From positions 737 to 64,736 of the forward strand of contig JBBRVE010000005.1 in NCBI GenBank assembly GCA_038247245.1: DNA of 64,000 nt, in the 5' to 3' direction. This DNA is from Bdellovibrionales bacterium. Its GTDB lineage: Bacteria > Pseudomonadota > Alphaproteobacteria > Micavibrionales > UBA2020. The notes beneath the pieces are model-generated. The model made no database searches and was not told the DNA's origin. It saw nothing but the letters and a program-made list of their open reading frames with translations. The stretch's first letter is position 1. Each line of letters opens with the position of its first letter. Positions 2 through 13,086 of this stretch are shown here, in pieces. Both the position numbers and the translations under genes were made by a program.

Positions 2-3000
2 GTCGGCGCGGTTGCGCAGGCGCAGATTTTCGAAGCCTTCCGCCATCCCGGCGACCCCTACCTGAAGGGGCAGGGCGTCACCGAACTGGATGCGACCGCC
101 GGCACGATTGCCGGATCGAGCGGCCTGTTCGACCTGCGCGTGCAGGGTAACGGCATTTCGACCGACTATGCGCTGATGGCGCTCGACAAGGTTTTGCGTC
201 AGGGCATGGCTAGCAACCCCACCGGCGGCGCGCTGCAAAACGCGCTGGGCGGCCTGATGCAGATTTATAACTCCGGTATGCTTGTCGTCGCCTGCCTGAT
301 GATCGGCTGGATGGTCATTTCCGTCATCATCGACACCGCGAAAACCGGTACGGTCGGTGGCGGACGCCACAACATGGTCTGGGTTCCTATCCGCGTGCTG
401 TTCGCGCTTGGCATCATGTTCCCGCTGGGCTCCGCCGGTTTCTCGGGCGGCCAGTACATGGTCGTGAAGCTTGCGGAATGGGGTTCCAACTTCGGTACGC
501 GCGGCTGGGCGACTTATGTCGCTTCCATCGTCGGCAACCAGACGCTGCTGTCGCCCTATACCGTCAACAACAACACCAACGTCGTCACCTCGATCAACAA
601 AATCATGGTCTGCCAGGTGGCGTACAACACCTATCTGCAGCAGCGCACCGGCGCGCTTGATGCCGATCAGGTGATCGAGCTGAAGCAGGACACAATGAGC
701 GGCGCGCCCGGCACCCCGCAGCAAAGCCAGCTTTACATCACCAACCGTTACAGCAACAACACCGCCAACAATATCTGCGGTGCGATCAAGTTTGCGACGG
801 CCGCGACGCCCGACGACAATAACCAGTTCCTCGACTGGAGCACGGCGACGCCGAACACGGCAATGACTGCGTCGACCACGACCGGCACCATGCCCGACAA
901 CAACTATAAAAACGTCGGCATGGCAACCGCCGTGAAAGGTTTCCGCGATGCGATGCGTGGCGCGCTGTCTGCCGATCTGGCTGACACCCCGACCGGCGTT
1001 GGCGCGGGTTCTGTCGTGACCGATGCCCGCCAGTTCGCCTGCCAGTTCGTTTCCCGTCGTTTCAGCGATGGCGGCGGCGCGGGCAACCCCGTGGCCGATA
1101 TTCCGATGTGCGGAGGCGCAGCGGCTGCCGCCACCGACCCCGATACGGCGTCGCACCAGAACATGCTGAACACCATGCAGGCCGCGATGATGGCCGCCTA
1201 TACCGGCGGCGGACGCGGCGCGCTCAACAACTATGTGGGCACCACATCGGCCAGCCCGATGATGACCGAAATGTCGAGCCGCGGCTGGGCCGGCATGGCC
1301 ATGTGGTATCAGGACATTGCGAACCTGAACAACGTGCAGTACACGGCGCAGGAACCGATGGCAACGGTCGAGCCCGGCTCGATCTGGTCGGGTTCCGGCG
1401 GTGCGGGCTGGGAGCGTTGCGCGGGTGATGCCAGTGAATCAGGCGAGCAGTGCAAAATCTCCGGCCTTGAGGACAAAGTGTTCTCGGTCATGAACGAATA
1501 CGACCGTTGGTGGGGTGTTTCCGGCCTTTCGGGTGCGCCCGGTAAAGTTGGCCAGGCCGCGGCTTCGTCCAACCAGGAACTGAACCCCGCGGTTGGCTCC
1601 TCGATCGGCTCGATCCTGTCATGGATCGGCAACGTGTCGATCGGCGACAACGGCATCCTGACCGTGCTGACGCGCTTTATCTTCCCGCGTGCGGCCGGCG
1701 TGTTCCTGTTCAAGGCTGTCGACCTGTCGGCGACCAACACCTATCCGCTGGCGCAGCTGTCGGACACCGGCCATAGCGTGCTGGGCATCGGCGCGCTGCT
1801 GTGGACGGGCGTCTCGATCCTGCAGGCTGTCTCCACGATTGACGGCGCGGGTTTCTCGCTGGGTAAAGGTCTTGCCTTCTCGGCGCTGATGGGCGCGCTT
1901 GCCTCCGTCGGCTCCATGATGATTTTGGCGGGCTGCGTGATTTCCTTCTATCTGCCGGCGCTGCCGTTTATCCGCGTCGCGTTTTCGGTGCTGACATGGC
2001 TGACCTCGGTGTTCGAGGCTGTCGTGATGGTACCGGTTGCGGCGCTGACCCACCTGTCCACCATGGGGCCCGGCCTGATGGGTAACCACGGGCGGACGGC
2101 CTGGACGCTGTGGTTCAACGTCTTTATGCGCCCGATCCTGACTGTTTTCGGCTTTGTCGCCGGTATGCTGTGCTATTCGACCTTCGCTGTGTTCTTCCAC
2201 ACGACGTTCGAACAGGGCGCGGCATCGGTGATGTCGACGCATTGGTACCCGATGCAGATCCTTGCCAAGGTCGCGTATTCGGTTATCTATCTCGGCACGC
2301 TTTATGCGGCTGCGAACACCTCTTTCAAGCTGCTGGACGTATTCCCCAACCACCTGATGCGCTGGCTGGGTGAATGGGGCGCGAAACAGGATACGGCGCT
2401 GCTCGACGGCCGTTCCAACATCGGCGGCGGCCTCGGCTTCGCGGGTGCGACACTGATCAAGAACCTGGAATCGGCGATCCCGATGTCGCAGGGCTGGAAC
2501 GTGCGTAACCTGATCAAGAGCGACGACGAACTGACCAACCTCAGAAACCCGAACAGTGTCGCGTCCCGCGCGGTGGCCATGGGCGTGCGTGACGAACTGC
2601 TGACCGATACCAAACTTGCGCGCAAGGAATCGGATATGCAGCTTGCCCGTTCCCGCATGACCGCGGATGAACGCGACCGCATGGCCAATATGTCGTCGGG
2701 CGACAAGGACCGCTTCCTGCAGCACAAATTCCTGGAGCAGGAGAACAAAAAATATAAACGCTTCGGCTTCGAGCGCGGCATCGGCTACAGCCTGAACACG
2801 ACCGGCAAGGCAGGGTACAGCAGTTTGGGCACCTCCGTTGCGGGCCTGAACATGCATGCCAGCATGAACCCGCGCCGCTGGTTCTCCCGCAACGAGGGCG
2901 GCAAGAGTATGGGCGGTTCCGGCTTCCATTTCGGTGAAAAACTGGCCGGTCACGGCCAGCGCGGCCACAAGGACAACGACCAGGGCTTCCGCGAACTGGA

Positions 3001-3715
3001 CGGCCCGTCGATTGGTCGCAGCCAGATGGCCGGTATTTCCGTCTCCGACAGCGCGCTCGATGGCGCTCTCTCGGGTGGCGCCGGCTCGGGCATGGACCTG
3101 ATGAACGCAACCCAGATGGCAAGCGTGCGCCAGAAAATCGAAAACCAGATGTCGGGCGCCGACGCCGTCAACTATGTGTCGATGTCGGATGCGGACAAAG
3201 ACAGCTTTATCCGCCGCTATTACGAAACCGACCCTGAACTGTTCGCGCCTGGCGTGGGCAAATCGGGCACGGACGCGATGTTCGGCTACATGAAAGCGCA
3301 GGACGAGCTGAATACAATCAGCAAATTGGGGCTTGGCGGTGCCGCCCTTGACGAGGCGACTCGCGAACCCCGCCAGACGATCGGCTATGCGCAAGCGATG
3401 TGGGAAGAGAAAAACGCAGGTTCCGACGTCAACTCGCAATGGGGCTTCATGACCCGCGATGAAAAAGCGGCCGTCGCCATGGCGCACGGCAAGCTGGTGG
3501 AATCGCGTGACCGTGCGGCCGAGAACGAAATGTCATCCGAACAGCGTATGGCATGGAAAAACGCCGATATCGCAAAACGCGAGCAATTCTCGGATGCGAA
3601 ATACGCCGAAAGCGTGATGCGCGGGCTGGTTGCCAAGGGCGTTGCGAACGAAGGCAAGCTCAACGACCTGATCAAGGCGAACGAAGCGCTGGGTGCCAAG
3701 CTGTTCAAGATCTGA
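2..3715 (+). CDS. dotA: DotA/TraY-family type IVB secretion membrane protein, paralog 1 (5'-truncated by window edge)
   Basis: Frame open from base 2 (VGAVAQAQIFEAFRHPGDPY aligns with paralog 2 VGEVAQAQLFFTHPGNPY). DotA/TraY-like motifs: DTAKTGTVGG..W.PIR, RGWAGMAMWY, YPLAQLSDTGH, SFYLPALPF, FEAVVMVPVAAL, NVFMRPILTVFG, P...MRWLG; multiple TM segments. Confidence 0.8.
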   Translation, partial: VGAVAQAQIFEAFRHPGDPYLKGQGVTELDATAGTIAGSSGLFDLRVQGNGISTDYALMALDKVLRQGMASNPTGGALQNALGGLMQIYNSGMLVVACLMIGWMVISVIIDTAKTGTVGGGRHNMVWVPIRVLFALGIMFPLGSAGFSGGQYMVVKLAEWGSNFGTRGWATYVASIVGNQTLLSPYTVNNNTNVVTSINKIMVCQVAYNTYLQQRTGALDADQVIELKQDTMSGAPGTPQQSQLYITNRYSNNTANNICGAIKFATAATPDDNNQFLDWSTATPNTAMTASTTTGTMPDNNYKNVGMATAVKGFRDAMRGALSADLADTPTGVGAGSVVTDARQFACQFVSRRFSDGGGAGNPVADIPMCGGAAAAATDPDTASHQNMLNTMQAAMMAAYTGGGRGALNNYVGTTSASPMMTEMSSRGWAGMAMWYQDIANLNNVQYTAQEPMATVEPGSIWSGSGGAGWERCAGDASESGEQCKISGLEDKVFSVMNEYDRWWGVSGLSGAPGKVGQAAASSNQELNPAVGSSIGSILSWIGNVSIGDNGILTVLTRFIFPRAAGVFLFKAVDLSATNTYPLAQLSDTGHSVLGIGALLWTGVSILQAVSTIDGAGFSLGKGLAFSALMGALASVGSMMILAGCVISFYLPALPFIRVAFSVLTWLTSVFEAVVMVPVAALTHLSTMGPGLMGNHGRTAWTLWFNVFMRPILTVFGFVAGMLCYSTFAVFFHTTFEQGAASVMSTHWYPMQILAKVAYSVIYLGTLYAAANTSFKLLDVFPNHLMRWLGEWGAKQDTALLDGRSNIGGGLGFAGATLIKNLESAIPMSQGWNVRNLIKSDDELTNLRNPNSVASRAVAMGVRDELLTDTKLARKESDMQLARSRMTADERDRMANMSSGDKDRFLQHKFLEQENKKYKRFGFERGIGYSLNTTGKAGYSSLGTSVAGLNMHASMNPRRWFSRNEGGKSMGGSGFHFGEKLAGHGQRGHKDNDQGFRELDGPSIGRSQMAGISVSDSALDGALSGGAGSGMDLMNATQMASVRQKIENQMSGADAVNYVSMSDADKDSFIRRYYETDPELFAPGVGKSGTDAMFGYMKAQDELNTISKLGLGGAALDEATREPRQTIGYAQAMWEEKNAGSDVNSQWGFMTRDEKAAVAMAHGKLVESRDRAAENEMSSEQRMAWKNADIAKREQFSDAKYAESVMRGLVAKGVANEGKLNDLIKANEALGAKLFKI

Positions 3716-3743
3716 ACGGGTGTGCCTGTATCACGGTAATAAC

Positions 3744-3778
3744 GCACCGCCGGGCACATGTCCGGCGGTGTCTTTTTC
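3744..3778 (+). terminator. intrinsic terminator after dotA paralog 1
   Basis: caccgccggg-cacatg-tccggcggtg stem-loop followed by tctttttc. Confidence 0.7.
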
Positions 3779-3804
3779 GGGCGGGCGCATCACCGCCCCG
3801 CTGG

Positions 3805-3820
3805 TTAGGTTTTTGTTAAC
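3805..3820 (+). promoter_or_regulatory. CtrA-like box (1 mismatch)
   Basis: TTAG-gtttttg-TTAAC versus consensus TTAA-N7-TTAAC. Confidence 0.45.
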
Positions 3821-3877
3821 TATATGAGATTACTTGCCAATTCCGTCCCATAAAATTTTGCATAAATGTCCATAAAT

Positions 3878-3906
3878 TTGACGGTTTTAAGAAAAAGGCG
3901 TACAAT
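3878..3906 (+). promoter_or_regulatory. sigma70-type promoter of dotA paralog 2
   Basis: TTGACG-N17-TACAAT about 50 nt upstream of the ATG. Confidence 0.7.
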
Positions 3907-3956
3907 TTAAGAATAAGCCTGTTATAGGTTCCGGTCTTTATTTGCAGGGCAAAACC

Positions 3957-6900
3957 ATGAGCGATTCCAAGCATAAGGGTTTAATTGCGGACGGTCTTCG
4001 CGCACTCGCGGAGCTACGCAAGGACAAAAAGGCCGATGCCGCCGTCGAGAGATTCGCAACCGGCGAGCGTGTTACAGGCCGCCGCACCCTTACGGACGTA
4101 CAAAAAGCCGCCAGCCCCTATGCCGAAAAACGCGCGCTGGAGAAGCGCGAGATCGCGGAAGGCAAACGCCAGCCGTTCCGCATCAAGGGCTCCGCCATCG
4201 CCGCCTTCATGTTCCTGCCGCAGTTCAGCCTGTGCTTCCGCGGCTTTTCGCACATCTATCCCGTGTTCATGCGCATCATGGCGCAGGTGCTGGTGCAGGC
4301 GTCACTGCTGCCCAATGACCATCCCGCCGTGAACTATGGCGCCGAAGGCGTTCCCAATGTCAGCTTCCGCAAGATGATGGGTGATGTCTGGTTCAAGCTG
4401 CGCACCACGCGCCGCACCGGCATGTACCAGTACGGCATGTTCGCCGTCGTCGTCATGATGATCGTGACGCTGACTGCCACGATTGGTACTTTCTTCGCCC
4501 GTATCTTTCTGGGTGTCGGCGAAGTCGCACAGGCGCAGTTGTTCTTCACGCACCCCGGCAACCCCTACGGCGCCGGCGCGGGCAAGACAGACATGGGCAA
4601 CGTGGGTGCCATCACGGGCGCGGGCGGCCTGTTCGACGGCCGCGTCGCCAACAACAATATCTCGACCGATTACGGCCTGATGGTGCTGGACAAGATCCTG
4701 CGTCAGGCGGCAGCCGATACGCCGAATGGCGGCGCGCTGCAGAACGCCCTTGCCGGCATGATGGGCGCCTATAACACCGGCGTCATCACGATTGCCTGCG
4801 TCATGATGCTGTGGATGATCGTTTCCATTGTCATCGACACCGCAAAAACCGGTGTGTTCGGCGGCGGCCGCCATAACATGGTCTGGGCGCCGATCCGCGT
4901 GATGTTCGCGCTTGGCCTGCTGTTCCCGCTCGGCTCGGGCTTTTCGTCCGGCCAGTATGCCGTGATGAAGCTTGCGGAATGGGGTTCCAACTTCGGTACG
5001 CGCGCCTGGTCGCAATATGTGGCGGGCGTTGTGGGCGACCAGTCGCTGCTGGCGCCCTTCGCGGTCAATAACGCAACCTCCCTCGTCAACAGCATCGGCA
5101 AGGTGATGGTCTGCCAGGTGGCCTTCAACACCTACCTGCAGCAAACGCAGGGCGGCCTGCCGCCCGACCAGGTGATCCGTCGCGTGCAGGACGTGACGCC
5201 GAACCTCGGCACCATCACAAACCGCTATACCAACAACACCGGCTCCAACGTCTGCGGCACGATCAGCTATTCGACCGCCTCCACCGCCGACGACATGGAC
5301 AAGTTCCTGGCGTGGTCGGCGATGGTGCCTTCGACCCCGATGACGGGCTCGACTCCGATTGTGAGCGGCACGGATTATAACGCTGCCCCCAACTTCACGA
5401 TTGCCGCCCGCGCGTTCCGTAATGCGATGCGTGGCGCGCTGGAACCTGCGATGCAGGACAGCGCGACCAGCGCGCTGGGTTCCGGCGGTACGGTCATTGA
5501 AATGGCCCGCCGCTTCGCCTGCCGCTATGTTGCCCGCAAATTCCCGGACGGCGGCACGGGCACCAGCCCTGTCGGCGCGATTCCTCAATGCGACGCGGCG
5601 ACGACGGCTGCGGCCGCTGCCGACCCCACGATGGCCGAACAGCAGGCAATGTCGAACCAGTTGCAGACCGACATCATGGCCGCCTATGACGGCCCCGGCA
5701 AAACCGCCCTGACGACCTATATCGGCGGCCCGATGGTGGCGCAGATGAATGCGCGCGGCTGGGCGGGCATGGGCATGTGGTATCAGGACATCACCAACAT
5801 GAACAGCCTGATGGCAGGCGCACAACAACCGACCGCGACCGTTGAACCGGGTTCCGTGTGGATCGGTGCCGGCGGATCCGGCTGGCTGCGTTGCATCGGA
5901 TCGAAAATCATCGGCCGCTCGTGCCGTATCTCGGGCCTCGAGGAAAAAGTCCTCGGCGCGCTCGACGGCTACGACAAATGGTGGGCGAACTCGACGGCGC
6001 CCGGCAGCCCCGGCCGCAGCCTGAACACGGCTTCCACCGGCGGCCGCGACATCAACACGGGTTCCAGCGGAAGTTTGAAAAACCTGATGGCGGCGTTTAA
6101 AAACCTCTCGGGTGGCGACAACAACATCGCGTCGACGCTCGCGCGCTTCTTCGTGCCCAGCCATGGCGGCGCGTTTATCTTCCGCGCGGTCGATTTGGCC
6201 GCAACCGGCACTTACCCCCTCGCGCAGCTGGCCAATACCGGCCATAGCGTGCTGGGTACGGGCGCCCTGCTCTGGGGCGGCGTGACACTGGTGCAGGCGG
6301 TATCGACGCTGAAAGGCTTCGGCTTCTCGCTTGGTATCGGTGTCGCCGTTTCCTCGCTGCTCAACGCGTTTGCCACGATCGGTACCGCGATGATCGTGTC
6401 GGGCCTGATGATTTCCTTCTACCTGCCTGTTCTGCCGTTCCTGCGCGTTGCCTTCTCGGTCCTGACCTGGATGGTGTCGGTGTTCGAGGCGGTGGTGATG
6501 GTGCCTGTCGCGGCGCTGGCGCACCTGGTCTCGACCGGTGACGGCCTGACGGCGGGGCAGCCGCAGTTGCGCACGGCATGGATCATGTGGCTGAACGTGC
6601 TGATGCGCCCTGTGCTGACGGTGATGGGCTTTGTCGCCGGTATGCTGATCTATAATACCTTTGCTGTGTTCTTCCACACGACCTTCTCGCAGGGTGCTGC
6701 TTCGGTCATCTCGTCCAACAACTACTTCATGGCGCTGATGGCCAAGGTCTGTTATTCGGTCATCTATCTGGGCACGCTGTACACGGCTGCGAACACTTCG
6801 TTCAAGCTGCTCGACATCTTCCCGGAAAACCTGATCCGCTGGATGGGCGGTTCGCCGGATCGCAGCGTCTCTGCTTCGCTGGGTCAGGGCCATGACGGCA

Positions 6901-7253
6901 ACATGTACGCTGCAACCCGCGTCTTCAACCAGATGCAGCCGCGAGGCGACGTGGCGATCAAGGATGCGGATACTCTTGCTGCCGAGCGCCAGCAACTGGC
7001 AAGCCGTGCCGACAACATGAAGGCGAACGCCAAGGACAAAGCGCTGAGCGGCGACGAACGCAAGCAGGCCGCGATCGACAAGAGCAACACGATCGACGGG
7101 CTGAACGCCAAGGACAAAGCCGCCTACAACAAGATGAGCCCCGACAAGCAGGACGATTTCCTGGCATCCAAGTTCAAGGAACAGGCAAACGCCAAATACG
7201 TCCGCCTGCCATGGGAAAAAGGCCTCACCGGCAAGCGCGGTTACCAGACCTAG
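3957..7253 (+). CDS. dotA: DotA/TraY-family type IVB secretion membrane protein, paralog 2
   Basis: Same motif set as paralog 1 (VWAPIRVMF, RGWAGMGMWY, YPLAQLANTGH, FYLPVLPF, NVLMRPVL, IRWMGG); ATG at 3957 preferred over TTG at 3942. Confidence 0.8.
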   Translation: MSDSKHKGLIADGLRALAELRKDKKADAAVERFATGERVTGRRTLTDVQKAASPYAEKRALEKREIAEGKRQPFRIKGSAIAAFMFLPQFSLCFRGFSHIYPVFMRIMAQVLVQASLLPNDHPAVNYGAEGVPNVSFRKMMGDVWFKLRTTRRTGMYQYGMFAVVVMMIVTLTATIGTFFARIFLGVGEVAQAQLFFTHPGNPYGAGAGKTDMGNVGAITGAGGLFDGRVANNNISTDYGLMVLDKILRQAAADTPNGGALQNALAGMMGAYNTGVITIACVMMLWMIVSIVIDTAKTGVFGGGRHNMVWAPIRVMFALGLLFPLGSGFSSGQYAVMKLAEWGSNFGTRAWSQYVAGVVGDQSLLAPFAVNNATSLVNSIGKVMVCQVAFNTYLQQTQGGLPPDQVIRRVQDVTPNLGTITNRYTNNTGSNVCGTISYSTASTADDMDKFLAWSAMVPSTPMTGSTPIVSGTDYNAAPNFTIAARAFRNAMRGALEPAMQDSATSALGSGGTVIEMARRFACRYVARKFPDGGTGTSPVGAIPQCDAATTAAAAADPTMAEQQAMSNQLQTDIMAAYDGPGKTALTTYIGGPMVAQMNARGWAGMGMWYQDITNMNSLMAGAQQPTATVEPGSVWIGAGGSGWLRCIGSKIIGRSCRISGLEEKVLGALDGYDKWWANSTAPGSPGRSLNTASTGGRDINTGSSGSLKNLMAAFKNLSGGDNNIASTLARFFVPSHGGAFIFRAVDLAATGTYPLAQLANTGHSVLGTGALLWGGVTLVQAVSTLKGFGFSLGIGVAVSSLLNAFATIGTAMIVSGLMISFYLPVLPFLRVAFSVLTWMVSVFEAVVMVPVAALAHLVSTGDGLTAGQPQLRTAWIMWLNVLMRPVLTVMGFVAGMLIYNTFAVFFHTTFSQGAASVISSNNYFMALMAKVCYSVIYLGTLYTAANTSFKLLDIFPENLIRWMGGSPDRSVSASLGQGHDGNMYAATRVFNQMQPRGDVAIKDADTLAAERQQLASRADNMKANAKDKALSGDERKQAAIDKSNTIDGLNAKDKAAYNKMSPDKQDDFLASKFKEQANAKYVRLPWEKGLTGKRGYQT

Positions 7254-7275: not shown

Positions 7276-7307
7276 AAAACCGCCGGGCCTGAAACCCCGG
7301 CGGTTTT
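7276..7307. terminator. intrinsic terminator (bidirectional form)
   Basis: aaaaccgccggg-cctgaaac-cccggcggtttt. Confidence 0.75.
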
Positions 7308-7444: not shown

Positions 7445-9304
7445 ATGGCGCGCACCGGGTTGTTAAAGGGTCTGGCAATTGCTTGCCTGCTGGCGGTTTC
7501 CGGTGCCGCGATGGCGCAGGAAACTTCAGCGGCCGCGCCAGCTGCGGTGCCCGCCGTTGCCATGCATGGCACGCCGAAATACGGCGCGGATTTCACGCAT
7601 TTCGAATACACCAACCCCGATGCGCCGAAGGGCGGCCAAATCCGGCTGGCGGCGTCCGGTACTTTCGATACGCTCAATGGTTTCATCATCAAGGGTGTAC
7701 CGGCTCCCGGCCTTGGCATGATTTACCAGCCCCTCACATCAAAGTCGGATGACGAAGCCTTCACGCAATACGGCCAGATCGCCCAAACCATCGAAATGCC
7801 GGAAGACCGCAGCTGGGTCGTGTTCAACCTGCGCAAGGAAGCAAAGTGGAGCGACGGCAAGCCGCTGACCGCCGACGACGTGGTGTTTACCTTCAATACT
7901 CTGATGAAGGATGGCCACCCGTTTTACCGCGCCTACTACGCGAATGTGAAAGAGGCAAAGGCCGAAACTCCGACCCGCGTAAAATTTACCTTTAACATGG
8001 CGGGCAACCGCGAACTGCCGCTTATCATGGGCGAAATGCAGGTGCTGCCCAGGCATTACTGGGAAGGCAAGAAATTCGACGCGACCACGCTCGAGGCACC
8101 GATTGGTTCCGGCGCGTACAAAATCAAGTCGGTCGATGCCGGCAAGCGCATTGTGTACGAACGCGTGAAAAACTGGTGGGGCGAAAACCTGCCCGTGAAC
8201 AAGGGGCAATATAACTTCGACACCGTCGTCTACGACCTTTACCGCGATGAAACCGTGCTGCTGCAGGCGTTGTTTGCGGGCGAATATGATTTCCGCGCCG
8301 AAAACCAGGCGAAAGCGTGGAATTCGGAATACAATACCGTTCCCGTCACCGAAGGCTGGATCAAGAAAGACGAGATCCACCACAGCCTGCCGTCCGGCAT
8401 GCAGGGCTTTATCTTTAACACCCGCCGCAACATATTCTCCGACGTACTGACGCGTCGCGCGCTTGGCTATGCGTTCGACTTTGAATGGTCGAACAAGCAA
8501 TTCGCGTTCGGTTCCTATAAACGCACCAACAGCTACTTCGACAACTCCGAACTTGCCGCAACAGGCCGCCCGCAGGGACGGGAGCTGGAAATCCTTGAAA
8601 AATACCGCGGCAAAATCCCGAACGAAATTTTCGTCGATGAATTCAAAAGCCCCGTGACCGATGGTTCGGGTGCCGATATGCGCGACAATCTGTCGATGGC
8701 AAAGCGCCTGCTGGCCGCAGCCGGCTGGCGCATGGGCGCCGGCAAGGTGCTGGTGCGCGGCGCGGATGTCATGAAATTCGAAATCCTGCTGTCCAGCCCC
8801 ATGTTCGAACGCTGGGTCGGCCCGTTTGCGGCGAACCTGAAAAAACTGGGCGCTGTCGTCACGGTGCGCACGATCGACCCGACGCAGTACCAGAACCGCA
8901 TGGACAGTTTCGATTTCGACGTCACGGTCGGCACCTTCGGCCAGTCGCTGTCGCCCGGCAATGAACAGCGCGATTATTGGGGCTCCGACAAGGTCAACGT
9001 GAAGGGCAGCCGCAACCTGATCGGCATCAAGGATCCCGTGGTGGACGAACTCATCGACCTCGTCATCACCGCGAAAGACCGCGAGGAGCTGCTGGCCGCA
9101 ACGCACGCGCTCGACCGTATCCTGCTGTGGAGCTATTACCTGATCCCGCATTGGCATATCGATTACTTCCGCATCGCCTATTGGGATAAATTCGGCCGCC
9201 CCGACATCACGCCCAAATACGGCCTCGGCATCCCCTACAACTGGTGGTATGACAAGAAAAAGGCCGATGTAGTGGCCGAACGCCTGAAAACCCTGAAAAA
9301 ATAA
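7445..9304 (+). CDS. yejA: ABC transporter substrate-binding protein (family 5, YejA)
   Basis: Signal peptide; AMHGTPKY..DFTHFEY.NPDAPKGG, GTFDTLN.FIIKG, NFD.VVYD.YRD, FDFEWSNK signatures. Confidence 0.92.
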   Translation: MARTGLLKGLAIACLLAVSGAAMAQETSAAAPAAVPAVAMHGTPKYGADFTHFEYTNPDAPKGGQIRLAASGTFDTLNGFIIKGVPAPGLGMIYQPLTSKSDDEAFTQYGQIAQTIEMPEDRSWVVFNLRKEAKWSDGKPLTADDVVFTFNTLMKDGHPFYRAYYANVKEAKAETPTRVKFTFNMAGNRELPLIMGEMQVLPRHYWEGKKFDATTLEAPIGSGAYKIKSVDAGKRIVYERVKNWWGENLPVNKGQYNFDTVVYDLYRDETVLLQALFAGEYDFRAENQAKAWNSEYNTVPVTEGWIKKDEIHHSLPSGMQGFIFNTRRNIFSDVLTRRALGYAFDFEWSNKQFAFGSYKRTNSYFDNSELAATGRPQGRELEILEKYRGKIPNEIFVDEFKSPVTDGSGADMRDNLSMAKRLLAAAGWRMGAGKVLVRGADVMKFEILLSSPMFERWVGPFAANLKKLGAVVTVRTIDPTQYQNRMDSFDFDVTVGTFGQSLSPGNEQRDYWGSDKVNVKGSRNLIGIKDPVVDELIDLVITAKDREELLAATHALDRILLWSYYLIPHWHIDYFRIAYWDKFGRPDITPKYGLGIPYNWWYDKKKADVVAERLKTLKK

Positions 9305-9326
9305 TTGCGCCCGAAGGAAATCAACC

Positions 9327-10439
9327 TTGTTCGCCTACACGATACGCCGCCTGCTACTGATGATCCCGACGCTGTTCGGTATCCTGCTGCTCAATTTTTT
9401 GATTGTGCAGCTGGCGCCGGGCGGGCCGGTCGAGCAGGTGATTGCGCGTCTTCAAGGCATGGATACCTCGGCGACGGCGAGGTTTTCCGGCGGCGGCACC
9501 GATACCAGTATCCAATCGCAGCAACAACAGATGGCAATCTCCGGCGGCGGGTCTAAATACCGCGGCGCGCAGGGTCTTGACCCCGAATTCATCAAAAGTC
9601 TCGAAAAGCAGTTCGGTTTCGACAAGCCGCTGCATGAACGTTTCTGGATGATGCTGAAAAACTACCTCACCTTCGATTTCGGCAACAGTTATTTTCAGGA
9701 CCGTGCTGTGATGGATCTTGTACTGGATAAGTTGCCTGTTTCCATCACGCTGGGACTTTGGACAACATTTTTCGCTTATATTATTTCAATCCCTCTCGGA
9801 ATCCGTAAAGCGGTGAAGGATGGGACACCTTTCGATACATGGACATCGGCGATTATAATTGTCGGCTACTCGATTCCTTCGTTCCTAATCGCGATTTTAC
9901 TCATCGTTCTTTTTGCCGGAGGGCAATATTGGAATATATTCCCCTTGCGAGGGATCGTTTCCGACGGCTGGCAGGACATGTCATGGCCAAAACGAATTTT
10001 GGACTATCTCTGGCACATCACCTTACCGGTACTGGCTATGACGATTGGCGGATTTGCAGGCTTGACGATACTTACAAAAAATTCCTTTCTTGAAGAAATT
10101 AACAAATTATACGTCCAGACAGCGCGTGCCAAAGGTCTTACAGAGCGTAGAGTTTTGTACGGCCACGTATATCGGAACGGCATGCTGGTGATTATCGCTG
10201 GCGTGCCAGGCGCTTTGCTGGGAATTTTCTTTGGCGAAGCGTTCCTCATCGAGAACATTTTTTCGTTGGACGGTTTGGGACTGCTCAGTTTTGAGTCGGT
10301 CATTAATCGCGACTATCCGGTCATGTTCGGCACTCTTTATGTGTTTACGCTAATGGGTCTTCTTATCAAGCTCGTTTCCGACCTGTTGATGACATGGGTT
10401 GACCCGCGCATAGATTTCAATGCGCAAGGGAGCCGATAA
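9327..10439 (+). CDS. yejB: peptide (microcin C-type) ABC transporter permease YejB
   Basis: AYTIRRLLLMIPTL, APGGPVEQ, YRGAQGLDPEFI..LEKQFGFDKP, TARAKGL, DPRIDF; TTG start with AAGGA RBS. Confidence 0.92.
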   Translation: MFAYTIRRLLLMIPTLFGILLLNFLIVQLAPGGPVEQVIARLQGMDTSATARFSGGGTDTSIQSQQQQMAISGGGSKYRGAQGLDPEFIKSLEKQFGFDKPLHERFWMMLKNYLTFDFGNSYFQDRAVMDLVLDKLPVSITLGLWTTFFAYIISIPLGIRKAVKDGTPFDTWTSAIIIVGYSIPSFLIAILLIVLFAGGQYWNIFPLRGIVSDGWQDMSWPKRILDYLWHITLPVLAMTIGGFAGLTILTKNSFLEEINKLYVQTARAKGLTERRVLYGHVYRNGMLVIIAGVPGALLGIFFGEAFLIENIFSLDGLGLLSFESVINRDYPVMFGTLYVFTLMGLLIKLVSDLLMTWVDPRIDFNAQGSR

Positions 10440-11467
10440 TGGAATTTACGTCTATATCAAAACGTCGGTTAGCCCAATTTCACCGCAATCGCAGGGGTTA
10501 CTTTTCCCTTTGGATATTTGTGGTAATTTTTGCAATCAGCATGTGCGCTGAATTCGTTGCAAACGACAAGCCGATCCTAGTCGTTTATAACGGTGATTAT
10601 TATGCCCCTGTTTTCAAGTCCTATGCGGAAACCCAGTTCGGCGGGGAGTTCGAAACAGAAGCCGATTACCGGGACCCTGCGGTGGCTGAACTCATCAACC
10701 GTAAGGGTTGGATGATTTGGCCACCCATCCGCTACTCTTATCAAACCATCAATTATAATCTTGACGTTCCCGCGCCATCCCCGCCCAGTCGCGAAAACCT
10801 GCTCGGCACAGATGATCAAGCGCGTGACGTTTTTGCACGGCTGATTTATGGTTTTCGCATTTCCGTTATTTTTGGCTTCATCTTGACGATAGTCAGTTCG
10901 GTAATAGGTATTTGTATCGGTGCGATGGAAGGGTATTTCGGTGGCTGGTTCGATCTTTTGACTCAGCGTCTTATCGAAATTTGGGCTGGCATGCCTGTAT
11001 TATTTCTGCTTATCATCATGGCTAGCGTGATCACACCGAGTTTTTTTACGGTGCTTGGCATCATGCTGCTATTTTCATGGATGACCCTCGTGCCTTTAGT
11101 GAGGATCGAGTTTTTAAAGGCGCGTAATCTCGACTATATCCGTGCAGCCAAAGCGTTGGGCGTGACCACTCCGGCCATTATGTTTAAGCATGCATTGCCG
11201 AATGCCATGGTATCAGTATTGTCGATGCTGCCGTTTATTCTGGCAGGATCAGTGACCACGCTGACAAGTCTTGATTTCCTTGGATTTGGTCTGCCGCCTG
11301 GTTCTGCGTCATTAGGCGAGCTGCTGTCGCAGGGGAAAAACAACCTGCAGGCGCCGTGGCTGGGGATGACGGCATTTTTCTCGATCGCGGTGATGCTGAG
11401 CCTGCTGACCTTTATCGGCGAAGCGGTGCGCGACGCCTTCGACCCGCGCAAGATTTTCAAAGGATAA
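10439..11467 (+). CDS. yejE: peptide ABC transporter permease YejE
   Basis: NRRGYFSLWIF, AEF.ANDKP, LGTDDQARDV.ARLIYGFRIS, LDFLGFGLPPGSASLGELL.QGKNNLQAPW; coupled to yejB (TAATG). Confidence 0.92.
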   Translation: MEFTSISKRRLAQFHRNRRGYFSLWIFVVIFAISMCAEFVANDKPILVVYNGDYYAPVFKSYAETQFGGEFETEADYRDPAVAELINRKGWMIWPPIRYSYQTINYNLDVPAPSPPSRENLLGTDDQARDVFARLIYGFRISVIFGFILTIVSSVIGICIGAMEGYFGGWFDLLTQRLIEIWAGMPVLFLLIIMASVITPSFFTVLGIMLLFSWMTLVPLVRIEFLKARNLDYIRAAKALGVTTPAIMFKHALPNAMVSVLSMLPFILAGSVTTLTSLDFLGFGLPPGSASLGELLSQGKNNLQAPWLGMTAFFSIAVMLSLLTFIGEAVRDAFDPRKIFKG

Positions 11468-11472
11468 TCACC

Positions 11473-13086
11473 ATGGCCCTGCTGGACGTCAAAAACCTCT
11501 CGGTCGATTTCGTGAACGGCAAGCAGGTCACGCATGCGGTGAAAAACATTTCCTTTTCCATCGAAAAGGGCGAAACGCTGGCGGTGGTCGGTGAATCAGG
11601 CTCCGGTAAATCCGTCACGGCGCTGTCCGTTCTGCAACTGCTGCCCTATCCGGTCGCGCAGCATCCGTCGGGCTCCATCAAGTTCAATGGTCAGGAACTG
11701 ATGGGCGCTGGCGACAGTGTGCTGCGCACCATCCGCGGCAACAAGGTTGCGATGATCTTTCAAGAGCCGATGACCTCGCTGAACCCGCTGCACACGATTG
11801 AAAAGCAGATTGCCGAAGCGCTGTTCCTGCATAAAAAAATGGAGCCGGATGCCGCACGCAAACGCGTGATCGAATTGCTGGAACTGGTCGGCCTGTCCAA
11901 ACTGACGCAGCGCCTTGGCGCATACCCGCATGAATTGTCGGGCGGGCAGCGGCAGCGCGTGATGATCGCGATGGCCTTGGCGAACGAGCCCGACCTGCTG
12001 ATCGCGGATGAACCCACCACGGCGGTCGATGTGACCGTACAGGCACAGATTTTGAAACTGCTGGCCGAATTGCAGCAGAAAATGGGCATGGCGATCCTGC
12101 TGATCACCCATGACCTGTCGATTGTGCGCAAGATGGCGAACCGCGTCGCCGTCATGTATCACGGCGATATCGTGGAACAGGCTGACACCCGGACATTGTT
12201 CGCCAACCCACAGCATGATTACACCAAAATGCTGCTGGCCGCGCAGCCACACGGGCAGCCGATGCCCTTTGATACGAACGCAGCGCCGATACTGAAGGCC
12301 GACGACCTGAAGGTGCATTTCCCGATCAAGACCGGGGTTTTTCGCCGCACGACCGATTACGTGCGCGCGGTCGACGGCATCAATATCGCCATCCGTCCGG
12401 GGCAGACGGTCGGCGTGGTGGGCGAATCCGGTTCGGGCAAGACGACGCTCGGCCTTGCGCTGCTGCGCCTGCTGAACAGTCAGGGGCTGGTGCAATTCGA
12501 AGGTAAATCGCTGAACGACATGGCAGACAAACAAATCCGCCCGTTGCGCCGTGATATGCAGATCGTGTTTCAGGACCCTTATGGCTCGCTCAGTCCGCGC
12601 CTGTCGGTCGCGCAGATCATCGAGGAAGGGTTGCTGGTGCATTTTCCGCAGATGAATGCGGCGCAACGTGACGCAAAAGTGGTGGCGGGACTGAATGAAG
12701 TCGGCCTCGACCCCGAAACGCGCAACCGGTATCCGCATGAATTTTCGGGCGGGCAGCGGCAGCGTATTGCGATTGCGCGCGCGATGGTGCTGAACCCGAA
12801 ATTCGTGATCCTTGATGAACCGACATCGGCATTGGATATGTCGGTGCAGGCGCAGATCGTGGAACTGCTGCGCAAATTGCAGCGCGACCACAACCTGGCC
12901 TATATGTTCATCAGCCATGATTTGCGCGTGGTGAAGGCGATGGCACATGACGTGATCGTGATGCGCAACGGCAAGGTGGTCGAGAGCGGCCCCGCCGCGC
13001 AAGTCTTCGATGCCCCGCGCGAGGATTACACCAAGGCGCTGCTGGCCGCCGCGCTCAACATCGACGTCGCGCCGCAGGCTGCATAA
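11473..13086 (+). CDS. yejF: peptide ABC transporter dual ATP-binding subunit YejF
   Basis: Two NBDs (GESGSGKS and [15 protein letters not shown] twice, DEPT twice); start trimmed to ATG 11473 after AGGA. Confidence 0.92.

What the first reader, a model, noticed from the sequence alone, without database searches (positions are those of the whole stretch)
2..7253. Tandem DotA/TraY paralogs outside any dot/icm operon, each its own transcription unit
Seen: two adjacent ~1100-1200+ aa proteins with collinear TM segments and conserved Cys positions, a divergent periplasmic middle and largely different C-terminal tails; a terminator plus a separate TTGACG-N17-TACAAT promoter lies between them; downstream genes are housekeeping. 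Established: DotA (Legionella Dot/Icm) and TraY (IncI plasmids) are usually single-copy inner-membrane T4BSS components. Inference: a chromosomal, duplicated and separately regulated DotA suggests interchangeable secretion-channel variants, e.g. for different prey/hosts or life-cycle phases in a Micavibrio-like organism.
Basis: partly seen in the sequence, partly recalled or inferred. Interest (0 to 1): 0.7.

Follow-up and report, generated by a model that had tools for sequence, protein, structure and literature searches.

The report
Mixed-subunit DotA channel gene array
The two genes are the last members of a run of long-diverged copies (three in the assembly, likely four) of DotA, the central channel protein of a Legionella-type secretion machine whose outer ring and motors are single-copy, and they likely build one mixed five-subunit channel rather than serve as swappable alternatives.

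Summary
Observation confirmed. Both ORFs are DotA/TraY (TIGR04346 226 bits, cut-off 100; the model of B matches Legionella DotA). They are copies 3 and 4 of a four-gene tandem array: copy 1 lies on another contig, copy 2 mostly in an assembly gap. The rest of a chromosomal Dot/Icm system is elsewhere in the genome, with single-copy core genes.

'Separately regulated' is not supported. All copies carry the same ~80-nt promoter block as single-copy relatives. Each copy is its own orthologous group under purifying selection, with a fixed, copy-specific sequence at the predicted channel neck.

DotA was multiplied independently in a second family of the order (three matches in 180 of 222 genomes). 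DotA's partner IcmX is present as five stable paralogues in this family. In Legionella both proteins are pentamers. In published Micavibrio RNA-seq, the three likely dotA genes are expressed in both life phases.

Best reading (0.55): an asymmetric, mixed-subunit DotA/IcmX channel. Main rival: co-existing single-type channels. There is no direct binding evidence. The scan noted the five IcmX-like genes before, in another genome; my searches found no paper on the DotA arrays.

The parts
2..3715 (+). dotA copy 3 (A); full ORF 1387 aa, starts at contig C5:288 upstream of the window; 447-aa C-terminal tail
1841..1870 (+). predicted channel-neck loop of A (aligns, through B, with Legionella DotA neck residues 719-729); unchanged in 6 of 6 copy-3 orthologues, different in the other copies
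   Evidence: mapping is by sequence alignment
2630..2758 (+). helical tail motif shared by copies 3 and 4; a weaker second repeat lies further along A's tail
3744..3771 (+). intrinsic terminator-like hairpin after A (12-bp stem, T run)
3851..3929 (+). dotA-specific promoter block holding TTGACG-N17-TACAAT (3878-3906); 90% identical to the block before A, 84% between A and copy 1, also present before single-copy dotA of relatives
3957..7253 (+). dotA copy 4 (B), 1098 aa
4191..4541 (+). conserved ~115-aa N-terminal domain ending in a hydrophobic helix and an AQAQ signal-like end; present in nearly all full-length DotA examined in the order; no family match
6312..6341 (+). predicted channel-neck loop of B; unchanged in 5 of 5 copy-4 orthologues
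7074..7202 (+). helical tail motif of B, homologous to the first part of A's tail
7276..7307 (+). terminator-like hairpin after B
   Evidence: read from the sequence; not in the list
7445..13086 (+). context: peptide ABC transporter operon, also the downstream neighbour of the single dotA of G013, G003 and G022

Best explanation
Shown: family and fold, the array, the shared promoter block, single-copy core genes, five orthologous IcmX-like groups, purifying selection and independent expansions. From the literature: Legionella DotA and IcmX each form a pentamer, and together a closed channel that opens on host contact. Inferred: once the IcmX cap had five unlike subunits, each DotA position faced a different partner, so duplicated dotA genes could specialise by ring position (neck loop, periplasmic domain, tail) and become non-redundant. 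With four or three genes for five places, the stoichiometry would be uneven (for example 2:1:1:1 or 3:1:1). The machine likely delivers proteins into prey or host cells.
For: (1) Array: four tandem copies in G001 (one contig), G002, G010 and G011. The first 25 codons of C5 match the end of copy 2, and contigs of run X1 cover copy 2 and bridge the copy 1-2 junction. (2) Only one core machine: dotH, dotC, dotD, dotB, dotM, dotL, icmB, icmT, dotN and the dotF-like gene are single in G000; dotH is single in 5 of 5 multi-dotA genomes tested. (3) The same promoter block precedes every copy and single-copy relatives. (4) Copies group by array position, not by genome; core dN/dS is 0.01-0.19 in all four groups, and the longest identical tract between paralogues is 23-45 nt. 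(5) The neck loop is fixed within a copy and differs between copies. (6) Family f6 has three matches in 180 of 222 genomes and four in 23 (hand count); one origin for both expansions is rejected (p-AU 3e-70). (7) IcmX-like family: the best structural match is the 9ngy chain of IcmX size (Z 13.9, next 7.5, 274 aligned, rmsd 5.9), with TraW-like features at 0.96; five matches in 24 of 27 f1 genomes and six in 3, forming five orthologous clades. (8) M. aeruginosavorus rows assigned by gene order and size: the dotA triplet reads 11.9/4.8/3.6 in attack and 3.9/1.7/2.8 in attachment; the icmX pair reads 16.2:4.5 and 13:3.4. (9) The DotA-IcmX pentamer (PMC12501162).
Against: All the evidence for co-assembly is indirect. 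Relatives with five IcmX-like genes but one dotA exist in the same genus (G003, G007, G013, G014), so a mixed cap does not require a mixed DotA ring. Each copy keeps its own promoter and terminator, which allows separate tuning. Copy number is 3 in G006 and G009 and 4 in the G000 group, and copy 4 of G011 is split over two ORFs (77% complete assembly, error or decay not resolved). In f6 the IcmX number varies by genus (2, 3 or 5 in the seven loci read) and dotA positions 2 and 3 were re-duplicated in subclades. The Micavibrio dotA ratios shift between phases, come from one bulk data set in another family, and cannot separate mixed rings from mixed populations of rings. The IcmX assignment rests on fold and context; sequence profiles did not reach the IcmX chain.
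Confidence: 0.55

Rival explanations
1. Each paralogue forms its own single-type pentamer, so one cell carries several machine variants on a common core, differing in gate, substrate or prey preference.
For: Each copy is a complete DotA with its own promoter and terminator. Periplasmic domains are only 38-57% identical between copies, and neck loops and tails differ. Bartonella amplifies trwJ-trwI-trwH with a role in host range (PMC2883598, passages). Legionella DotA and IcmX evolve fast and are thought to be host-exposed (PMC6761968, passages).
Against: No diversifying signal within groups (periplasmic dN/dS 0.11-0.19). Copy number is held at three across most of f6. Co-expressed paralogues that are 57-73% identical in the membrane blocks would be expected to mix unless they evolved exclusion (inference).
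Confidence: 0.28
2. The copies are kept mainly for dosage of a consumed or shed channel protein and are functionally near-equivalent; rings mix at random.
For: Whole transcription units with the same promoter were duplicated. Legionella DotA is reported to be secreted (PMC6761968). The likely Micavibrio dotA and icmX rows are high in attack phase, when dotB and icmB are near zero.
Against: Dosage copies usually stay alike through gene conversion (established knowledge). These differ at about half of the periplasmic residues, show no conversion tracts, and keep copy-specific conserved features.
Confidence: 0.1
3. One reading: separately regulated variants switched by life-cycle phase or prey.
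For: Separate transcription units; small differences in the -10 hexamer between copies; dotA ratios shift between phases in the Micavibrio table.
Against: Near-identical promoter blocks, shared with single-copy relatives; all three likely Micavibrio copies are expressed in both phases and all are higher in attack.
Confidence: 0.06
4. The genes are remnants of a conjugative tra region or ICE.
For: TIGR04346 covers plasmid TraY as well as DotA.
Against: The same housekeeping flanks occur in single-copy relatives; a match was found in 282 of 290 genomes of the order; frames are intact and under purifying selection; there was no PF03432 relaxase match (one relaxase family tested).
Confidence: 0.01

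Closest known systems
Legionella pneumophila DotA-IcmX protochannel (PDB 9ngy; PMC12501162)
   Same: Sequence and fold homology of B to DotA; two hydrophobic blocks around a Cys-bearing periplasmic domain; an IcmX-like partner family and the core dot/icm genes are present.
   Different: Legionella has one dotA and one icmX, adjacent with icmV and icmW, forming homopentamers. Here there are likely four dotA and five icmX-like genes at separate loci, no icmV match, an extra N-terminal domain and long tails on two copies.
Rickettsiales rvh T4SS with four or five tandem RvhB6/VirB6 paralogues (PMC8035066; bioRxiv 2025.08.29.673095)
   Same: Tandem, deeply diverged paralogues of the pentameric channel subunit (DotA is placed as the VirB6 equivalent in PMC12857230), some with N- and C-terminal extensions and co-expressed; the same open question of mixed versus single-type complexes.
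   Different: That is a type IVA system without VirB5. Here it is type IVB, the VirB5-equivalent IcmX is multiplied too, and expansions arose at least twice in one order.
Bartonella Trw trwJ-trwI-trwH tandem amplification (PMC2883598)
   Same: Tandem amplification of the VirB5 and VirB6 equivalents in a non-conjugative T4SS.
   Different: Bartonella copies vary in number between species, recombine and diversify; these are stable orthologous groups under purifying selection, and dotA and icmX are unlinked.
IncI plasmid TraY and TraW
   Same: Same families (TIGR04346; TraW-like features for the IcmX-like genes).
   Different: Chromosomal, vertically inherited, no tra operon, and no relaxase of the one family tested.

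Membership tests
DotA/TraY family | Score above the TIGR04346 cut-off | tested here: met
   226 and 225.8 bits against 100; 0 of 14 control genomes match
DotA/TraY family | DotA fold | tested here: met
   Model of B (pLDDT 70.4): Foldseek 9ngy DotA E 2.5e-13, next hit VirB6 E 0.18; family profile against DotA E 8e-68. A was not folded.
DotA/TraY family | Forms a pentameric channel with IcmX/TraW | not testable with these tools
   Known for Legionella only (PMC12501162)
Legionella-type DotA equivalog (NF033886) | Score above 500 bits | tested here: not met
   143.7 and 137.4 bits
Legionella-type DotA equivalog (NF033886) | Single copy beside icmV, icmW and icmX | tested here: not met
   Tandem array between a HAD-like hydrolase gene (label recalled from motifs) and an ABC transporter; icmX-like genes are on C72 and C14
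[quoted passage not shown] | Core components DotB, DotC, DotD, DotG, DotH, DotI, DotL, DotM, DotN, IcmB/DotO, IcmT | tested here: met
   several are below equivalog cut-offs. IcmB is assigned by position, size, a weak TraC hit and gene order with the Micavibrio table.
[quoted passage not shown] | IcmV | tested here: inconclusive
   No NF038219 match in G000 (96% complete); the DotA N-terminal domain does not match an IcmV profile of 5 sequences (probability 0.1%)
[quoted passage not shown] | IcmS, IcmW, IcmQ, IcmR, IcmF, DotU, DotK | not tested
   No dedicated search
[quoted passage not shown] | Protein translocation into a target cell | not testable with these tools
   Inference from the family
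IcmX/TraW (five paralogues on C72 and C14) | IcmX fold | tested here: met
   One paralogue modelled (pLDDT 78.5): 9ngy_AP1 is rank 1 by Foldseek (E 2.6e-3, next 1.9) and VIA-align (Z 13.9, rmsd 5.9, 274 aligned, next 7.5). The chain is taken as IcmX from its residue range (23-458).
IcmX/TraW (five paralogues on C72 and C14) | Sequence match to IcmX or TraW models | tested here: inconclusive
   TraW NF033888 E 0.005, 16 bits, on the C14 paralogue; no IcmX hit from profiles against the PDB; language-model features TraW-like at 0.96, family on 61% of cluster members
IncI-type conjugative tra region or ICE | tra operon around traY, relaxase, patchy distribution | tested here: not met
   (only PF03432 tested for a relaxase)
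Rickettsiales RvhB6 expansion | VirB6 subunit of a type IVA system | tested here: not met
   The proteins are DotA/TraY in a type IVB system; analogy only

The most novel reading that the evidence does not exclude
This broken symmetry arose at least twice in one order, and the channel is restocked in the attack phase as the tool for breaching prey.
Probability: 0.42. Interest if true: 0.82.

Novelty: new variant of a known kind. Interest (0 to 1): 0.66.

Why it matters
DotA and IcmX were only recently shown to form the gated pentameric channel of type IVB secretion. Finding both multiplied, repeatedly and stably, around a single core machine suggests the channel works with unlike subunits. Whether paralogous channel subunits form mixed or single-type complexes is stated as an open question for rickettsial VirB6. 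The same question becomes testable here in a free-living predator, M. aeruginosavorus, whose genome paper reported no type IV secretion system and whose feeding mechanism is unknown. It also gives a natural series (1, 2, 3 or 4 DotA; 2 to 5 IcmX) for studying how a symmetric ring gains obligate subunit diversity.

Tried and rejected
Fused IcmV as the N-terminal domain: rejected for lack of support (profile comparison probability 0.1%; no NCBIfam or Pfam family; Atlas score 0.81 to an unnamed cluster). A search for free-standing forms of that domain gave only 2 proteins on 505- and 701-nt contigs.

Joining C135 directly to C5: rejected; the start of C5 is the end of copy 2, not of copy 1.

Gene conversion between copies: none seen. 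Paralogue dS values are probably saturated and were not used for dating.

A shared regulon motif: the dotA promoter block is not upstream of the other dot/icm genes.

'Exactly five IcmX everywhere': rejected; it holds for family f1 and G031 but not for f6.

A second dotG on C21: rejected; it is a DotG-like segment inside a larger unrelated protein.

Rows GMV_222-225 of the Micavibrio table were considered as the dotA triplet and rejected on neighbours.

The short-profile counts can overcount: the second matches in G022 and G292 are not full genes, and in G047 it is a fragment; G044 (2) and G161 (4) were confirmed (5 genomes checked).

No RNA holder was listed for this stretch. The search of named genomes with one f6 protein returned only that genome.

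Literature: 'Micavibrio' with 'DotA' gave 0 papers; searches listed none on these arrays.
Full report
Observation. The window starts inside a long ORF (A, 2-3715), followed by a second (B, ATG 3957-7253). The contig extends 736 nt upstream and gives A an ATG at C5:288, 1387 aa in all. A and B are 52% identical over 949 residues. Both pass TIGR04346 DotA/TraY at 226 bits and fall far below the Legionella equivalog cut-off. A model of B (pLDDT 70.4) has Legionella DotA (9ngy) as its only significant structural match, with VirB6 next. Terminator and promoter-like sites lie between the genes as described; the promoter count alone is at chance level. The tails are partly homologous: a 43-residue helical motif is shared by A and B and is found in no other gene of the assembly.

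The array has four genes. A third copy is on contig C135, cut at the contig end. In G001 (one contig), G002, G010 and G011 there are four tandem copies; in G006 and G009, three; in G003, G007, G013 and G014 of the same genus, one. The first 25 codons of C5 match the C-terminus of copy 2 of G001, and C135 is copy 1. Contigs of the run that best holds the window cover most of copy 2 and bridge the copy 1-2 junction (that run may be the source of the assembly). So A and B are copies 3 and 4. The flanking genes are the same as around the single dotA of G013, G003 and G022, so the array grew in place. Copy 4 of G011 is split over two ORFs.

One machine. Dot/Icm genes lie on C11 (dotI twice, dotH, dotG, a dotF-like gene, icmC/D-like genes, dotN, icmB), C72 (dsbG, dotD, dotC, dotB, icmT) and C4 (dotM, dotL). 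Ten core genes are single in G000, and dotH is single in 5 of 5 multi-dotA genomes tested. dotI has two tandem copies and two weak further hits. No PF03432 relaxase matched; other relaxase families were not tested.

Regulation. An ~80-nt block with the -35 and -10 hexamers precedes each copy (90% identical between A and B, 84% between A and copy 1). It precedes all four copies in relatives and the single dotA of G013, G007, G003, G014 and G022, and it occurs nowhere else in the assembly. Whole transcription units were duplicated and the promoter was kept. This argues for joint, not separate, regulation.

Selection. Copies cluster by array position (60 proteins). Within the four groups (6, 4, 6 and 5 sequences) dN/dS is 0.01-0.19 in the core and 0.27-0.41 in the tails; no identical tract over 45 nt links paralogues in three genomes. 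The loop that aligns with the Legionella neck residues 719-729 is nearly invariant within each copy and different between copies.

Across the order. A profile of the C-terminal membrane block matched 282 of 290 genomes. By hand count, family f6 has 3 matches in 180 of 222 genomes, 4 in 23, 2 in 10, 1 in 7 and 0 in 2. Of 23 f1 genomes outside this genus, 18 have 1, 4 have 2 and 1 has 0; two of those doubles are not full genes, one is two full genes on separate contigs, and one was not checked. The f6 loci read hold three or four tandem genes with short gaps; G044 of family f8 has two. The f6 and genus-g1 expansions are separate clades, and one origin is rejected (20 of the sequences, p-AU 3e-70). 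In f6, position-1 copies mostly form one clade while positions 2 and 3 were re-duplicated in subclades.

The partner is multiplied too. Four tandem signal-peptide-like proteins follow dotB-icmT on C72 and a fifth is on C14. A model of one matches chain AP1 of the DotA-IcmX structure best by Foldseek and VIA-align (Z 13.9 against 7.5); the Atlas places it with TraW-like proteins. Sequence profiles did not reach IcmX and the TraW model hit only weakly. In f1, 24 of 27 genomes at least 90% complete give five matches and 3 give six (the sixth of G002 scores identically to its fifth, on a second contig). They fall into five orthologous clades, shared with G031 of f8 for four of them (the G017 labels were partly overwritten by its lone locus, which is in pieces). 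The f6 paralogues form their own clade, with 2, 3 or 5 copies in the seven loci read. A place search of this genome returned nothing.

Expression in a cultured relative. The M. aeruginosavorus genome paper states there is no type IV secretion system (PMC3189940, passages), but its expression table lists icmO, icmB, icmL, icmT and dotB (supplement). By gene order and size against f6 loci, GMV_196-198 are likely the dotA triplet and GMV_2431-2432 the icmX pair; this is not verified by sequence. Their attack/attachment values are 11.9/3.9, 4.8/1.7 and 3.6/2.8, and 16.2/13 and 4.5/3.4. All are expressed in both phases. The ratios are near 3:1:1 in attack and 4:1 for icmX, which would fit pentamers, but the dotA ratio shifts in attachment and this is one bulk data set. 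I saw parts 2 and 13 of 20 of that table plus search hits.

Mechanism. Legionella DotA and IcmX each form a pentamer, and together a closed channel that opens on host contact (PMC12501162, parts 1-3 of 7 read). I infer that five stable IcmX paralogues make one asymmetric cap, that this lets duplicated DotA subunits specialise by position, and that they then co-assemble in uneven numbers (0.55). Against this, same-genus relatives manage with one dotA, copy numbers do not equal five, and no binding was shown. The main rival is several single-type rings on a common core (0.28). Dosage (0.10), phase switching (0.06) and a mobile remnant (0.01) fit less well.

Comparison and novelty. The nearest parallel is the four or five tandem VirB6 paralogues of Rickettsiales, where mixed versus single-type assembly is stated as open (PMC8035066 and bioRxiv 2025.08.29.673095, passages); DotA and IcmX are placed as VirB6 and VirB5 equivalents in PMC12857230 (passages). 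Bartonella trw amplification is the precedent for the rival (PMC2883598, passages). A type IVB system in Micavibrionales was noted in passing in PMC9418006 (passages). PMC6761968, PMC12428579, PMC4676284 and PMC11338181 were seen as passages and do not describe these arrays in what I saw. Searches found no paper on multiplied dotA; the library lacks most subscription papers, and a 2014 comparative paper on epibiotic predators (seen only as a reference) or unseen supplements may mention the system. The order name is inferred, and predation by this organism is not shown. Verdict: real, a new variant of a known kind, interest 0.66.

Noticed in passing
L062:1929-7454 (G000 C72) and L072:3121-6051 (C14): Five IcmX/TraW-like paralogues, four tandem after dotB-icmT and one 977-aa lone copy with a long insertion; one of each in most genomes of the family.
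   Followed up: yes
window 4191-4541 and homologous N-termini: DotA proteins across the order carry a conserved ~115-aa N-terminal domain before the signal-like helix; not IcmV, no known family, not found free-standing.
   Followed up: partly
G000 C21:14803-17130 and C26:3625-5436: Two related VWA-type proteins (label recalled from motifs) each carry a segment similar to a dot/icm protein: DotG in one (E 5e-41), the IcmD-like protein in the other (E 1e-18 to 2e-20).
   Followed up: partly
L061:14516-16741: Two near-identical small IcmD-like proteins flank a longer IcmC/TraQ-like protein of the same family; these possible pilin-like subunits are also multiplied.
   Followed up: no
G000 C71:1-2193: Tandem array of seven ~100-aa paralogues sharing a conserved motif; function unknown.
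   Followed up: no
L061:195-7912 and L062:13950-15478: Ankyrin-repeat proteins and a DUF6782 putative metallopeptidase flank the dot/icm clusters; possible substrates.
   Followed up: no
L062:12906-13724: A dsbG gene lies directly upstream of dotD; it may serve the Cys-rich DotA and IcmX periplasmic domains.
   Followed up: no
L066:3-15701: A phage head-tail or gene-transfer-agent-like gene cluster (judged by eye from N-terminal sequences).
   Followed up: no
PMC3189940 supplement rows GMV_196-198 and 2421-2439: The paper says no type IV secretion system, yet the table holds dot/icm genes; the likely dotA and icmX rows are high in attack phase while dotB and icmB rise on attachment.
   Followed up: partly
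L047:10736-14090 (G011): Copy 4 of dotA is split over two overlapping ORFs; assembly error or decay.
   Followed up: no
L055:11589-14837 (G035): The first dotA copy ends in a tail that resembles an intramolecular chaperone/peptidase S74-type domain (recalled from the motif, not tested).
   Followed up: no
L103:12690-16021: flgK and an flgL-like gene sit inside the dot/icm cluster between the icmX pair and icmT-dotB in genus g64.
   Followed up: no
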